Of a stretch of DNA of 64,000 bases, positions 11,529 to 18,495 are shown piece after piece. The translations under genes were made by a program, and so were the position numbers. Within the stretch, counting starts at the first letter, position 1. The number at the start of each line of letters is the position of its first letter. Source of the stretch: an uncultured Pelagibacteraceae bacterium (GTDB taxonomy: Bacteria > Pseudomonadota > Alphaproteobacteria > Pelagibacterales > Pelagibacteraceae); contig CACCXU010000002.1 in NCBI GenBank assembly GCA_902550055.1, forward strand, positions 71,770 to 135,769, in the 5' to 3' direction. The notes beneath the pieces were generated by a model. It was given only the letters and a program-made list of their open reading frames with translations. It did not search any database and was not told the DNA's origin.

Positions 11529-12038
11529 ATGAGATTTTTAATAATATTTGCTTTTTTAATATCTAATTGTGTAGCGGCAGAAATCAAAGACATAAAAAAT
11601 CTTGTTATCAATAAAGAGCTTAAAAAATATGATGGATTAACGTTTTTAGATGATCAGAGTAATGAGATTCAACTTGATCAATTTGAAGGCAATTTGGTTT
11701 TGCTCAATTTTTGGGCAACTTGGTGTGCTCCATGTAAAGAGGAAATGCCATCTCTTGATCAATTGCAATCTCAAAAAAATTTAAACAATTTAAAAATATT
11801 TCCGATTAATGTTGGTCAGGATAATTTAGAAAAAGCCTCTAAATTTTTTGAGGATTTAGGTATAGATAATCTTAAGATATATTTCGACTCACCAATTACC
11901 TTAGCGAAAAAGTTTGGACTAAGAGGAGTGCCCACCACAATTTTGATAAACAAGGATGGATATGAGTTTGCAAGAATTGTTGGGTCAATAGATTTTAAGG
12001 AAAAAAATTTTGTTGAATGGTTGGCTAGTTACAACTAA
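11529..12038 (+). CDS. tlpA: TlpA-family thioredoxin-like disulfide reductase
   Basis: Signal/anchor, LNFWATWCAPCKEEMPSL, cis-Pro GVPTT; divergent from argH as in other alphaproteobacteria. Confidence 0.9.
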   Translation: MRFLIIFAFLISNCVAAEIKDIKNLVINKELKKYDGLTFLDDQSNEIQLDQFEGNLVLLNFWATWCAPCKEEMPSLDQLQSQKNLNNLKIFPINVGQDNLEKASKFFEDLGIDNLKIYFDSPITLAKKFGLRGVPTTILINKDGYEFARIVGSIDFKEKNFVEWLASYN

Positions 12039-15213: not shown

Positions 15214-15298
15214 GGGCGAATGGCGGAACTGGTAGACGCGCACGACTCAAAATCGTGTTTCGCAAGAAGTGAGAGTTCGATTCTCTCTTCGCCCACCA
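15214..15298 (+). tRNA. tRNA-Leu(CAA)
   Basis: Acceptor GGGCGAA/TTCGCCC, anticodon arm CACGA-CTCAAAA-TCGTG, long variable arm, GTTCGA T-loop, encoded CCA. Confidence 0.97.
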
Positions 15299-17000: not shown

Positions 17001-17119
17001 TTTTTCACAAAATATTTGATTATTAAGCGCATAAACACTAACTTTTTTACAATTTAAATTTTTTTAAAAAAAATTTTTATTTTAATTTTATTTTAAAAAT
17101 TTTCTTTAAAATTTAAGAT

Positions 17120-17148
17120 TTGACATAAGGCACATAAAAAAATAAAAA
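17120..17148 (+). promoter_or_regulatory. Putative sigma70 promoter (TTGACA-N17-TAAAAA) with upstream A/T tracts
   Basis: Perfect -35 at 17120-17125, -10-like at 17143-17148, preceded by about 70 nt of nearly pure A/T tracts. Confidence 0.55.
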
Positions 17149-17159
17149 TAGATTAATAG

Positions 17160-17175
17160 CGAATCAATTGATTCG
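17160..17175. promoter_or_regulatory. Perfect 16-bp palindrome CGAATCAATTGATTCG (two inverted GANTC sites)
   Basis: Read directly; lies between the putative promoter and the RBS of the basic peptide ORF. Confidence 0.6.
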
Positions 17176-17199
17176 TTTAACTTAAAAAGGGAGCTAAAG

Positions 17200-17277
17200 A
17201 TGCCTAAGAGAAGAAAAAAAGCAAAGAAGGCTAAGAAAAAAGCTAAGAAAAAAGCTAAAAAAAGAAGAAGAAGATAA
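17200..17277 (+). CDS. 25-aa protamine/histone H1-like basic peptide MPKRRKKAKKAKKKAKKKAKKRRRR
   Basis: Not in ORF track. Strong SD AAAAGGGAG ending at 17193, ATG 17200, TAA 17275-17277, own promoter and terminator; 19 of 25 residues are K/R. Confidence 0.8.
   Translation: MPKRRKKAKKAKKKAKKKAKKRRRR
17230..17265 (+). repeat. In-frame 12-nt tandem repeat (GCTAAGAAAAAA x2 plus one degenerate copy) encoding AKKK
   Basis: Read directly at 17230-17241, 17242-17253, 17254-17265. Confidence 0.8.
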
Positions 17278-17296
17278 TTACTTAGTATTCTTTATC

Positions 17297-17341
17297 AAAA
17301 ACGCTTCTCATAACGATTTACGTGTGAGAGGCGTTTTTTTT
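17297..17341 (+). terminator. Rho-independent terminator between the peptide gene and carD
   Basis: AAAAACGCTTCTCATA...TGTGAGAGGCGTTTTTTTT. Two G-U pairs form only in the + strand RNA and a T8 tract follows; may also act weakly on carD. Confidence 0.85.
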
Positions 17342-18212
17342 ATTCCTCTATATCTTCTTCATTTTCTGAAACAGCCTCTTCTTCAGGTAAATCTGATGAA
17401 GCTTGCTTTATTGGTGCTGCTTCTGGTTTAGGTTGAGTATTTAAGTTTCTTTTTAAAGCTTTATCTAATTTTTTTTGAGTATCCTCTAATGACAGATTCA
17501 GAATTATTTGAAATTCTGAAAGAATTCTTTCATATGCTTTTTCAAACAATTGTCTCTCACTATAAGATTGGTCAACCATCAAATCATCTCCCTTATTAAG
17601 GTCTCTTACTACTTCAGCTAGCTCATAAATTTTACCTGATGAAATCTTTGCTTCATATTCCTGTGCTCTCCTACTCCACATAGATCTTTTTATTTTAGGC
17701 TTACTTTTTAATATTGAGATGCATTTATTTACCTGATTGATAGTAGCTAATGGTCTTAAGTGTAATTGTTTATTAACAGGCACCATTCCATTTGCCTTGT
17801 CTTTTTCAAATTTTATAACGTAAGTTTCAACGTCTATTCCTCCAATATTTATTTTTTTAAATTCTGTTATTTGCCCAACACCGTGTTTTGGGTATACGAC
17901 GTAATCTTTGATTTTATATTCTCTTTTTTCTGTTTCTTGTTTTTTTACTTTTTTAATTTCTGGTTTAGCCTCATTATTTTTTGTAATTCTCAAACCACTA
18001 TTTTTCTGTTCTGTAGTTTTGACTTCAGATTTTATAGATTTTTTTAAAGGAATTTTTTTAGTTTTAATTAATTTTTTTGGTAATTTATTAATCTTTTTTT
18101 TTACTTTTTTTAATTTAACAACCTTTTTTGTTTTTGCCTTTTTTTTCGATTTAGTAGCTTTACTTTTTTTAAAGGTTTTCTTTAAAATACTTTTCAAACT
18201 TATTTTGCTCAT
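17340..18212 (-). CDS. carD: CarD family transcription regulator with Lys-rich N-terminal and acidic C-terminal extensions
   Basis: VVYPKHGVG (RID), [16 protein letters not shown] (conserved Trp), [17 protein letters not shown]; downstream of fdxA. Confidence 0.93.
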
Positions 18213-18495
18213 CTTTATATTCTTCGTGATCCGATGGAGGATCTTTCTTAACTGTTATATTTGGCCAGATTTCGGAATATTGTTTATTGATCTCTAGCCA
18301 TTTTTCAGACCCTGGCTCTGTATCAGCTTTTATTGCATCAACAGGACATTCAGGCTCACAAACGCCACAATCTATACACTCATCAGGTTTAATTACAAGC
18401 ATATTTTTTCCCTCATAGAAACAATCTACAGGGCAAACTTCAACACAGTCCATTAACTTGCATTTAATGCATTTGTCATTAACTATATATGTCAT
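18169..18495 (-). CDS. fdxA: 7Fe ferredoxin FdxA
   Basis: MTYIV...[19 protein letters not shown]...[17 protein letters not shown]. Confidence 0.96.

What the first reader, a model, noticed from the sequence alone, without database searches (positions are those of the whole stretch)
17120..17341. Unannotated stand-alone gene for a 25-aa protamine/histone-H1-like peptide
Seen: a complete expression cassette in an otherwise minimal genome: A/T tracts, TTGACA-N17-TAAAAA, a 16-bp palindrome, a strong SD (AAAAGGGAG, rare in this window), ORF MPKRRKKAKKAKKKAKKKAKKRRRR (13 K, 6 R, 4 A, no acidic residue) and a terminator whose G-U pairs work only on the + strand. The G/C bases fall where Ala, Arg and Pro codons need them, which argues against random A-rich filler. 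Established: KAKK/PAKK repeats bind and compact DNA in histone H1, Chlamydia Hc1/Hc2, Pseudomonas AlgP and the mycobacterial HupB tail. Inference: a highly expressed nucleoid-condensing or polyanion-binding micro-protein. An alternative is a small basic ribosome-associated peptide of the eL41/bS22 kind. It would be invisible to gene callers (length) and to tryptic proteomics (K/R content).
Basis: partly seen in the sequence, partly recalled or inferred. Interest (0 to 1): 0.9.

Follow-up and report, generated by a model that had tools for sequence, protein, structure and literature searches.

The report
Hidden polycationic mini-protein gene of SAR11
The gap between fadD and carD holds a real, strongly transcribed gene, kept across the SAR11 (Pelagibacteraceae) ocean bacteria, for a 25-residue peptide made only of lysine, arginine, alanine and one proline; it most likely coats DNA or RNA, but its target has not been shown.

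Summary
The 25-codon ORF at 17200-17277 (+) has a perfect -35 box, a 5' stem-loop, a GGGAG ribosome-binding site (found at 2 of 706 long ORFs of this genome) and a plus-strand-specific terminator.

The cassette sits in the same fadD > peptide > < carD < fdxA position in all 19 genera sampled of the family (297 of 301 genomes by DNA search). The frame is intact in 86 of 89 loci read. I found 36 peptide variants of 21-58 residues. None has an acidic, amide, aromatic or large hydrophobic residue. dN/dS is about 0.24. Synonymous codons cap A-runs at about 7.

Metatranscriptome contigs from 8 studies hold the stretch. Population indels are 3 nt inside the ORF and 1 nt outside it.

No protein or RNA family matches. 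The function is inferred: a non-specific nucleic-acid polycation like a histone-H1 tail or protamine. A ribosome-bound eL41/bS22-like role is the main rival.

This scan found the same gene before in other SAR11 genomes. I tested one lead from those notes. In congeners, the loop of the orphan rhtB RNA hairpin (the 5' leader of a LysE-type exporter gene) is the reverse complement of this gene's SD-ATG region. That RNA is not in this 73%-complete assembly.

The parts
17046..17119 (+). A/T-tract region upstream of the promoter (possible UP element)
   Evidence: Sequence. A second, weaker promoter-like site lies at 17046-17074. The UP-element function is inferred.
17120..17149 (+). Sigma-70-type promoter: TTGACA (-35), 17-18 nt spacer, TAAAAA/AAAAAT (-10)
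   Evidence: Best promoter-like site of the 2-kb scan, 10 of 12 matches. TTGACA is invariant in all loci whose printed upstream sequence reaches that far, from 16 of the 19 sampled genera. No start site was mapped.
17158..17177 (+). 5'-proximal RNA stem-loop of the mRNA (core CGAATC/GATTCG); contains GANTC sites at 17161-17165 and 17170-17174
   Evidence: Folds at -8.2 kcal/mol. In g5/g7/g8 the 3' arm reads GATTTG, a G.U pair possible only in + strand RNA. In g13/g15/g17/g20 longer, different stems form at the same place.
17189..17193 (+). Shine-Dalgarno GGGAG, 6 nt before the ATG
   Evidence: GGGAGCTAAAG-ATG is invariant in all genus-level loci. GGGAG precedes only 2 of 706 long ORFs in this genome.
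17189..17209 (+). Stretch complementary to the loop of the rhtB RNA hairpin of congeners (SD, spacer, ATG, codons 2-4)
   Evidence: The G013 rhtB hairpin against the whole G000 genome: the best hit is the antisense of this stretch, 20 of 21 nt, E 0.002. Duplex energy is -31.7 kcal/mol, against a mean of -7.9 (sd 3.6, minimum -23.1) for 914 start regions. Sub-threshold antisense Rfam hits fall on the leader in G000, G013 and G063.
17200..17277 (+). ORF of the 25-aa polycationic peptide (net charge about +19), stop TAA
   Evidence: Intact in 86 of 89 loci, 36 peptide variants, no acidic residues, dN/dS about 0.24.
17301..17341 (+). Intrinsic terminator: 10-bp G+C-rich stem with G.U pairs, then T8. 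The last Ts overlap the carD stop codon (17340-17342, minus strand)
   Evidence: Stem sequences differ between genera with compensating changes. An RNA contig ends at 17338 with a fold-back (table 7).

Best explanation
This is a real, independently transcribed and translated micro-gene.

How it is expressed: a strong promoter gives a short mRNA of about 185 nt. A 5' stem-loop and a strong intrinsic terminator bracket it, and both probably stabilise it. An unusually strong SD drives translation of a 25-residue peptide of Lys, Arg and Ala with one Pro.

What the product does: it has about +19 net charge and no hydrophobic core. It most likely acts as a genetically encoded polycation that binds nucleic acid through charge. 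In that role it would be a stripped-down histone-H1-tail or protamine-like counter-ion that helps neutralise and compact the chromosome, and possibly also coats RNA, in the very small SAR11 cell.

Extra control in the genus Pelagibacter: the translation-initiation region is the exact complement of the loop of the rhtB leader hairpin. The peptide mRNA and the mRNA of a LysE/RhtB-type exporter probably pair and regulate each other.

Shown: the gene structure, conservation, coding constraint, presence of the RNA, and the complementarity in congeners. Inferred: translation, the binding target, and the direction and effect of the RNA pairing.
For: Cassette and coordinates.

Conservation: the ORF is present in 18 of 18 same-genus carD loci that reach the interval. 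DNA matches occur in 297 of 301 family genomes, 19 of 19 genera and 123 of 123 high-quality genomes. The fadD > peptide > < carD < fdxA order holds in every genus read.

Coding constraint:
- An unbiased read from the ATG to the first stop gives an intact basic ORF in 86 of 89 loci.
- In 1285 codons there is not one Asp, Glu, Asn, Gln, His, Ile, Leu, Phe, Tyr, Trp or Cys. Yet GAA, CAA, AAT and ATA are single-step neighbours of AAA.
- Third-position changes dominate (452, against 201 and 299). dN/dS is about 0.24.
- AAG makes up 29% of Lys codons (13.8% genome-wide) and GCT 78% of Ala codons (41% genome-wide). This keeps A-runs at 7 or fewer; 28 of 36 variants have P below 0.05 against genome codon usage.

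RNA structures: covarying 5' hairpin and terminator.

RNA presence:
- 14 RNA runs of 8 studies hold the stretch.
- In a 0.83-Mb run only this gene is covered, at depth up to 80.
- In another run depth is 200-330 over the gene, about 18 over carD and 0 over fadD.
- Population indels are 3 nt inside the ORF (after 17220 and 17242) and 1 nt outside it (17167, 17183, 17315, 17320, 17333).

Charge-driven, non-specific binding: there are 16 different lengths from 21 to 58 aa. One genus carries PAAKK/PAKKRK repeats.

rhtB link:
- True RF01814 hits (82 and 80 bits) in G013 and G063 have the loop CTTAGCCATCTTTAGCTCCC.
- The same 18-mer sits at a second locus in 24 listed congeners.
- Genome-wide uniqueness and duplex energy.
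- The hairpin ends 13 nt before the ATG of a LysE-type ORF.

Precedents: sRNA control of a histone-like protein (PMC3469542). Small basic DNA-binding proteins in Coxiella that may replace polyamines (PMC4766238).
Against: - No protein-level evidence exists: no Ribo-seq and no mass spectrometry.
- No family match supports DNA binding.
- HU/IHF genes are present in three copies both in this family and in the sister family that lacks the peptide. The peptide therefore does not replace a lost nucleoid protein.
- Lys and Arg are nitrogen-costly for an oligotroph.
- RNA depths come from runs chosen because they hold this stretch. The A-rich transcript may also be over-captured by oligo-dT or A-rich priming, so 'highly expressed' is semi-quantitative.
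- The rhtB RNA is absent from this 73%-complete assembly.
- That RNA fell below the Rfam threshold in the seven other genera tested, so it is a genus-level add-on.
- Leader and loop are both invariant within the genus, so there is no covariation to prove the pairing.
Confidence: 0.55

Rival explanations
1. Ribosome-bound micro-protein. The peptide is a functional analogue of eL41/bS22/mS38 (or bL37/bTHX): a single basic helix lodged in an rRNA pocket, overlooked because it is so short.
For: Its size and composition match eL41 (25 aa) and bS22. Borrelia bS22 is 61% K/R and was unannotated; the authors of that work predict further undiscovered cases (preprint 10.1101/2023.04.16.537070). No COX24_C/bS22 homologue was found elsewhere in SAR11 genomes, so the pocket has no known occupant. 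The strong promoter and SD fit a product needed in ribosome-like amounts.
Against: No match to PF08213 or to any ribosomal family, even at E 10. Lengths vary from 21 to 58 aa across 36 variants within one family, and one genus has Pro-rich repeats that cannot form one helix. By contrast, bS22 differs by one residue across the three Borrelia groups. The sister family of the same order lacks the gene with the patterns used.
Confidence: 0.22
2. Mainly regulatory RNA or ORF. The transcript is a trans-acting mRNA whose RBS region pairs with the rhtB leader, and/or the Lys/Arg-rich ORF senses Lys/Arg-tRNA supply. The peptide is a by-product.
For: There is 20 of 21 nt complementarity to the loop of the leader of a LysE-type (basic amino acid exporter family) gene. 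76% of the codons are Lys or Arg. The SD-spacer-ATG is absolutely invariant in the genus that has the rhtB RNA but variable in other genera. SAR11 lacks Hfq, which would favour long, perfect pairings.
Against: The gene is family-wide, whereas the rhtB RNA was found only in one genus. There is no cis-regulated gene: the ORF is followed at once by a terminator and the convergent carD. Non-basic positions are restricted to small residues and never become acidic, amide or hydrophobic. That is selection on the product, not only on K/R codons.
Confidence: 0.12
3. Non-coding small RNA or A-rich filler, with an ORF that is open only because the tract lacks T.
For: A purine-rich tract has few stop codons in any frame. 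The 12-nt and 3-nt repeats would produce in-frame indels by slippage alone.
Against: The SD and ATG are invariant at fixed spacing, and the stop comes directly after the Arg run in 86 of 89 loci. There are no +/-1 changes in the A-runs of the ORF, while A and T runs in the UTRs vary by 1 nt. The in-frame codon set has 0 GAA/GAG, against 233 and 190 in the other frames. dN/dS is about 0.24. No Rfam family matches on the + strand.
Confidence: 0.04
4. Secreted antimicrobial or cell-penetrating peptide.
For: A near-identical synthetic 22-mer (MR-22) kills E. coli at 16-32 ug/ml and damages membranes (PMC10847306).
Against: There is no signal peptide, no neighbouring exporter or immunity gene, and the position is a conserved housekeeping one. 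MR-22 activity falls to 256 ug/ml when sodium is added at the level that paper calls physiological, and seawater is far saltier.
Confidence: 0.03

Closest known systems
Bacterial histone-H1-like lysine-rich proteins (Chlamydia Hc1/HctA and Hc2, Pseudomonas AlgP, mycobacterial HupB tail)
   Same: K/A-rich low-complexity repeats, with PAAKK-type repeats in one SAR11 genus. There are no acidic residues and the length is variable. The nearest named cluster by protein-language-model features carries Pfam HC2 in 23% of its members (a lead only).
   Different: These proteins are several times longer and are usually tails on folded domains. There is no profile match to PF07382. DNA binding by the SAR11 peptide is untested.
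IhtA small RNA repressing hctA translation in Chlamydia (PMC3469542)
   Same: A trans-encoded RNA is complementary to the translation-initiation region of a gene for a potentially toxic polybasic nucleic-acid binder. In Pelagibacter congeners the rhtB hairpin loop matches SD-ATG over 20 of 21 nt.
   Different: The SAR11 partner is the 5' leader of an exporter mRNA, not a free-standing sRNA gene. Regulation has not been shown. The partner was found in one genus only and is not in this assembly.
eL41 / bS22 / mS38 ultra-short polybasic ribosomal proteins (Pfam PF08213)
   Same: They are 25-35 aa, more than 60% K/R and easily missed by annotation.
   Different: There is no sequence match. The SAR11 peptide varies freely in length and repeat number, and it lacks the conserved Met/His/Leu positions of that family (those positions are from my own knowledge).
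Coxiella burnetii ScvA and Hq1 (small basic DNA-binding proteins of the small cell variant; PMC4766238)
   Same: ScvA is a stand-alone, very small, very basic peptide associated with condensed chromatin. It has been proposed to take over the nucleic-acid-stabilising role of polyamines.
   Different: ScvA belongs to an unrelated lineage and is developmentally regulated. From my own knowledge it is Arg/Gln-rich. No sequence was compared here.
rhtB RNA motif (Rfam RF01814; Meyer et al. 2009, PMC2704228)
   Same: The window's leader gives a weak hit to this model (24.2 bits).
   Different: The hit is on the opposite strand and far below the gathering score of 55. It is the antisense target of the motif's loop, not a copy of the motif.

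Membership tests
bS22/eL41/mS38 (Pfam PF08213 COX24_C) | Sequence match to the family profile | tested here: not met
   No Pfam or NCBIfam hit at E up to 10 for the window peptide or four variants. PF08213 found nothing in five SAR11 genomes.
bS22/eL41/mS38 (Pfam PF08213 COX24_C) | Near-invariant length and sequence among relatives, as expected of a pocket-bound helix | tested here: not met
   There are 36 variants and 16 lengths (21-58 aa) within one family.
bS22/eL41/mS38 (Pfam PF08213 COX24_C) | Bound in the 16S h27/h44/h45 pocket of the ribosome | not testable with these tools
   Needs cryo-EM or ribosome fractionation.
Histone-H1-like bacterial proteins (Hc2 PF07382, AlgP-type KPAA repeats) | Profile match or KPAA/AKKA-type repeats | tested here: inconclusive
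   There is no profile match. KAKK repeats occur in all variants, and PAAKK/PAKKRK repeats occur in the 50-58 aa forms of one genus.
Histone-H1-like bacterial proteins (Hc2 PF07382, AlgP-type KPAA repeats) | Binds and condenses DNA | not testable with these tools
   Needs a binding or condensation assay or localisation.
Protein-coding gene (as opposed to a non-coding RNA) | Frame, start and stop are kept, and substitutions are biased to synonymous or conservative changes | tested here: met
   86 of 89 loci are intact. dN/dS is about 0.24. No acidic codon occurs in 1285 codons. Natural indels are 3 nt in the ORF and 1 nt outside it.
Protein-coding gene (as opposed to a non-coding RNA) | Translation product detected | not testable with these tools
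   No Ribo-seq or proteomic data were available.
Trans-antisense control of a polybasic protein gene (IhtA-hctA type) | A separately encoded RNA complementary to the translation-initiation region | tested here: met
   Met in congeners G013 and G063 and in 24 listed genomes. The partner RNA was not found in this incomplete assembly.
Trans-antisense control of a polybasic protein gene (IhtA-hctA type) | Pairing changes translation or stability | not testable with these tools
   Needs reporter or binding experiments. No covariation is available because both partners are invariant in the genus.
Rfam RF01814 (rhtB RNA) | Score at or above the gathering threshold, on the strand of the motif | tested here: not met
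   24.2 bits against a threshold of 55, on the minus strand.
Leader peptide / transcription attenuator | A regulated gene downstream on the same strand, after the terminator | tested here: not met
   The terminator abuts the stop codon of the convergent carD.
Secreted cationic antimicrobial peptide | Signal or leader peptide, dedicated exporter or immunity gene, activity at ambient salinity | tested here: not met
   There is no signal sequence and there are no such neighbours. The synthetic relative loses activity when sodium is added.

The most novel reading that the evidence does not exclude
SAR11 cells make a genetically encoded bulk polycation that takes over part of the counter-ion role of polyamines and Mg2+ for DNA and RNA in one of the smallest free-living cells. 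In the genus Pelagibacter its mRNA is wired by direct mRNA-mRNA pairing (peptide RBS with the loop of the rhtB leader) to a LysE-type basic amino acid exporter. Together they form an Hfq-independent Lys/Arg-homeostasis circuit, which would give the orphan rhtB RNA motif of 2009 its first function.
Probability: 0.2. Interest if true: 0.9.

Novelty: new variant of a known kind. Interest (0 to 1): 0.74.

Why it matters
SAR11 is the most abundant group of marine bacteria, and its genomes are held up as fully streamlined and well annotated. A conserved gene has escaped annotation and tryptic proteomics, although its RNA assembles even from very small metatranscriptome runs. Its product is almost pure positive charge. 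If real in the cell, it would change three things:
- how nucleoid compaction, charge balance and nitrogen budget are viewed in these cells;
- how intergenic reads at this locus in ocean metatranscriptomes are read;
- which target is proposed for the rhtB RNA motif, whose function has been open since 2009.

It is also a clean test case for gene callers on ultra-short, low-complexity ORFs.

Tried and rejected
- **Homology searches gave nothing.** I tried Pfam, NCBIfam and a PDB profile. The word-index protein search refuses queries under 40 aa, and the 58-aa form found nothing. Exact look-ups of 13 variants found nothing.
- **A peptide HMM over genomes was too insensitive.** It hit 15 of 77 same-genus genomes, while DNA search finds the gene in 86 of 86 same-genus genomes. 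Its 0 of 60 in the sister family is therefore uninformative.
- **Pattern searches in the sister family found no gene.** Result was 0 of 60, and a looser pattern gave only out-of-frame false hits.
- **Pattern searches across about 400 alphaproteobacterial genomes found one plausible analogue,** in one GC-rich genus. A second pattern using the leader motif added none.
- **Hfq-sponge idea rejected.** The ORF is an (ARN)n tract, but no Hfq gene was found in five genomes, while the control genomes were positive.
- **'Replacement for a lost HU' rejected.** HU/IHF is present in three copies in both families.
- **DNA-operator reading of the palindrome rejected.** There are G.U pairs and covarying stems. 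Only the 5' GAATC is conserved, so a CcrM-methylation role for that single site stays open (GANTC methylation in Pelagibacter: PMC9516812).
- **A mirror mini-ORF** (MAKKDY...) on the opposite strand of the rhtB leader is not conserved between G013 and G063, by my own reading of the sequences.
- **A sliding duplex scan of the whole genome timed out**. I replaced it with blastn-short plus start-region duplexes.
- **The rhtB leader in RNA runs:** This is weak evidence.
- **RNA contigs cannot give a start site.** One contig begins upstream of the promoter (17101), so read-through or DNA carry-over is not excluded for that run.
- **Literature searches** found no description of this gene.
- **Structure prediction was not run.** The peptide is below the 30-aa limit, and a lone helix would not discriminate between the hypotheses.
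Full report
**1. What is in the window**

- TTGACA at 17120, followed after 17-18 nt by TAAAAA/AAAAAT. This is the best promoter-like site in the 2-kb scan.
- A perfect 16-nt palindrome at 17160-17175.
- AAAAAGGGAG ending 6 nt before the ATG at 17200.
- A 25-codon ORF, MPKRRKKAKKAKKKAKKKAKKRRRR, with stop TAA at 17275-17277.
- A 10-bp G+C-rich hairpin at 17301-17334, followed by eight T. The last of these T overlap the carD stop codon.

No Pfam, NCBIfam or PDB sequence matches the peptide. No Rfam family matches the plus strand. In the whole 859-kb assembly this is the only SD-preceded small ORF with at least 60% K+R and no acidic residue. GGGAG precedes only 2 of 706 long ORFs.

**2. Conservation**

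I fetched the carD neighbourhood from 40 relatives. A basic ORF of 21-30 aa was present in 18 of 18 same-genus loci that reach the interval. It was absent next to carD in a sister family of the same order.

A DNA search with 241 nt of the cassette matched 297 of 301 genomes of the family. That covers all 19 genera and 123 of 123 high-quality genomes. In every other genus read, the gene lies in the same fadD > peptide > < carD < fdxA arrangement.

An unbiased read from the SD-linked ATG to the first stop, with no composition filter, gave an intact ORF in 86 of 89 loci. Two exceptions are contig ends. The third (L081) has eight A where seven are expected, which shifts the frame. That is a homopolymer error or a real lesion in one MAG.

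**3. Is it coding?**

Across 49 distinct DNA versions and 36 distinct peptides (21-58 aa, 16 lengths), the 1285 internal codons encode only K, R, A, T, P, G, V and S, plus one internal Met. There is no Asp, Glu, Asn, Gln, His, Ile, Leu, aromatic residue or Cys. Yet GAA, CAA, AAT/AAC and ATA are one-step neighbours of the commonest codon, AAA. Read in the other two frames, the same DNA would give 233 and 190 GAA/GAG codons.

Among same-length pairs, third-position differences dominate (452, against 201 and 299), and dN/dS is about 0.24.

Synonymous choices are unusual for this genome. AAG is 29% of Lys codons, against 13.8% genome-wide and 16.9% in the ribosomal-protein cluster. GCT is 78% of Ala codons, against 41%. 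The effect is to break up A-runs. The longest run is 7 in most versions, shorter than expected from genome codon usage for 28 of 36 peptides. That fits selection against slippage in a translated frame.

Natural populations show the same pattern. In metatranscriptome contigs the indels inside the ORF are 3 nt (after 17220 and 17242). Those in the hairpin loop, the UTR A-run, the terminator loop and the T-tract are 1 nt (table 4).

One caveat: the 12-nt and 3-nt repeats favour in-frame slippage. The indel argument therefore rests mainly on the absence of +/-1 changes in the A-runs.

**4. The RNA elements**

The palindrome is an RNA stem-loop, not a DNA operator. In three genera the 3' arm reads GATTTG, which gives a G.U pair that exists only in plus-strand RNA. 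In four more distant genera a longer, different stem forms at the same place. Only the 5' ACGAATCA is conserved in sequence. It contains one GANTC site, a motif known to be methylated in Pelagibacter (PMC9516812). I did not follow this further.

From the promoter geometry the hairpin should lie within a few nucleotides of the 5' end, where such structures protect mRNAs. This is an inference, since no start site was mapped.

The terminator is kept in every genus, with different but compensating stems. In 35 of 40 distinct versions it is more stable on the plus strand (mean -16.7 against -11.8 kcal/mol; 62 G.U pairs).

**5. Expression**

Fourteen RNA runs from eight studies hold the stretch, including oligo-dT and polyA libraries. 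I laid four runs on 2 kb:
- A run of only 0.83 million letters covers just 17193-17339, at depth up to 80.
- Another run has depth 200-330 over the gene, about 18 over carD and none over fadD.
- One contig ends at 17338 in the T-tract with a fold-back.

Three caveats apply. The runs were chosen because they hold this stretch. Contigs show neither strand nor start. An A-rich RNA may be over-captured. The RNA clearly exists and is abundant in some samples, but its rank in the transcriptome is not established.

**6. What it is like, and what it is not**

Sequence membership in bS22/eL41/mS38 fails. So does membership in Hc2 or any other family.

The ESM Atlas holds the 30-aa and 58-aa orthologues letter for letter among 'hypothetical protein' clusters. 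The nearest named neighbour carries HC2 in 23% of its members, which is only a lead.

A synthetic 22-mer of this family, taken 'from the UniProt' by an antimicrobial-peptide predictor, kills E. coli at 16-32 ug/ml. It loses activity when sodium is added (PMC10847306). With no signal peptide and no export genes nearby, a secreted role in seawater is unlikely.

The free variation in length and repeat number, and the Pro-rich PAAKK/PAKKRK repeats of one genus, fit charge-driven, non-specific binding. This is the behaviour of an H1 tail, AlgP, Hc2 or protamine. It fits less well with a fixed rRNA pocket. bS22, for comparison, differs by one residue across the three Borrelia groups (preprint 10.1101/2023.04.16.537070). 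That is my main reason to rank the nucleic-acid polycation reading above the ribosomal one. It is an inference.

HU/IHF genes are present in three copies with or without the peptide, so the peptide is an addition, not a replacement. Hfq is absent. This removes the idea that the (ARN)n tract is an Hfq sponge.

**7. The rhtB link (a lead from earlier notes of this scan, tested here)**

My first Rfam scan gave a sub-threshold rhtB hit on the minus strand of the leader. Earlier follow-ups on other SAR11 genomes said the RBS is the complement of the rhtB hairpin loop. I checked this independently.

- Two complete congeners have true RF01814 hits (82 and 80 bits) at distant loci. Each also gives a weak antisense hit on its own peptide leader.
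- The hairpin has a 10-bp stem around a 27-nt loop. The loop contains CTTAGCCATCTTTAGCTCCC, the reverse complement of GGGAGCTAAAGATGGCTAAG. That stretch is the SD, spacer, ATG and codons 2-3. There is one mismatch where codon 2 is CCT.
- I searched the G013 hairpin against this whole genome. Its best hit is the antisense of 17189-17209 (20 of 21 nt, E 0.002). The predicted duplex is -31.7 kcal/mol, against a mean of -7.9 (sd 3.6, best -23.1) for 914 other start regions.
- The 18-mer core lies at a second locus in 24 listed congeners.
- The hairpin ends 13 nt before the ATG of a 204-aa LysE/RhtB-type membrane protein. This agrees with the original description of the motif (PMC2704228).

The link has limits:
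- The rhtB RNA is not in this 73%-complete assembly.
- It was below threshold in seven other genera.
- Neither the effect nor its direction is known.

The closest precedent is IhtA repressing the histone-like HctA in Chlamydia (PMC3469542). A link between a Lys/Arg-only peptide and a basic amino acid exporter family is suggestive, but it remains speculative.

**8. Range outside the family**

Patterns for the N-terminus with an SD found nothing in 60 genomes of the sister family. Among about 400 alphaproteobacterial genomes they found one plausible analogue: 28- and 34-aa basic ORFs with a GGGAG SD in two genomes of one GC-rich genus (after gatB in the one read), 68% identical in DNA with in-frame differences. 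These searches are narrow, so this is 'not found with these queries', not absence.

**9. Verdict**

- The gene is real. I put coding plus transcription at about 0.9.
- A nucleic-acid-binding polycation of the H1-tail/protamine kind is the best-supported function, at about 0.55 together with the RNA-level control.
- A ribosome-bound role is the main rival, at about 0.2.
- Relative to the literature I could search, the gene is undescribed.
- Within this scan it has been found repeatedly on other SAR11 genomes.

Noticed in passing
window 17340-18212 (-): CarD is 290 aa, with about 95 Lys-rich residues before the RID domain (Pfam hits start at residue 99) and an acidic C-terminus. Same-genus CarD aligns over residues 1-290. 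In most other genera the alignment starts between about residue 35 and 95 (two align from residue 1), so the basic tail diverges there.
   Followed up: partly
L081 (G049:C5), complement of about 1560-1640: This is the only orthologous locus with a broken frame. A run of eight A where seven are expected shifts the Arg run to Lys codons and reads past the usual stop. It may be a homopolymer error in a MAG or a real lesion.
   Followed up: partly
L076 (G083:C6:3500-9624): The whole fadD-peptide-carD-fdxA block appears twice as a perfect mirror image on one 9.6-kb contig. This is probably a palindromic assembly artefact.
   Followed up: no
L110 (G701:C30) and L126 (G791:C3): Two genomes of a GC-rich (about 60%) alphaproteobacterial genus carry 28- and 34-aa basic ORFs (MAKRRRKVKK... 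and MAKRRKRRKT...) with a GGGAG SD and an upstream GATTCG motif like the SAR11 leader; in L110 the ORF follows gatB. This could be a distant relative or convergence.
   Followed up: partly
table, e.g. G081, G106, G134, G141, G186, G207 at C1:about 11680-11980: In many complete same-genus genomes the peptide gene lies about 11.7 kb from the start of the record. If those records start near the replication origin, the gene has a high-dosage position.
   Followed up: no
L143:1501-1583 (-) and its opposite strand: The opposite strand of the rhtB leader carries the same GGGAGCTAAAG-ATG-GCT-AAG start as the peptide gene, followed by a short ORF that is not conserved. The similarity runs over about 31-33 nt, which suggests the hairpin loop arose by inverted duplication of the peptide gene's 5' end.
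   Followed up: partly
window 15214-15295 (+): A tRNA gene (58.5 bits) lies directly upstream of the fadD-like gene.
   Followed up: no
window 18169-18495 (-), fdxA: Metatranscriptome contigs of one run pile up to a summed depth above 3000 at the 5' part of the ferredoxin gene just upstream of carD. Depth from contigs is not a ranking.
   Followed up: no
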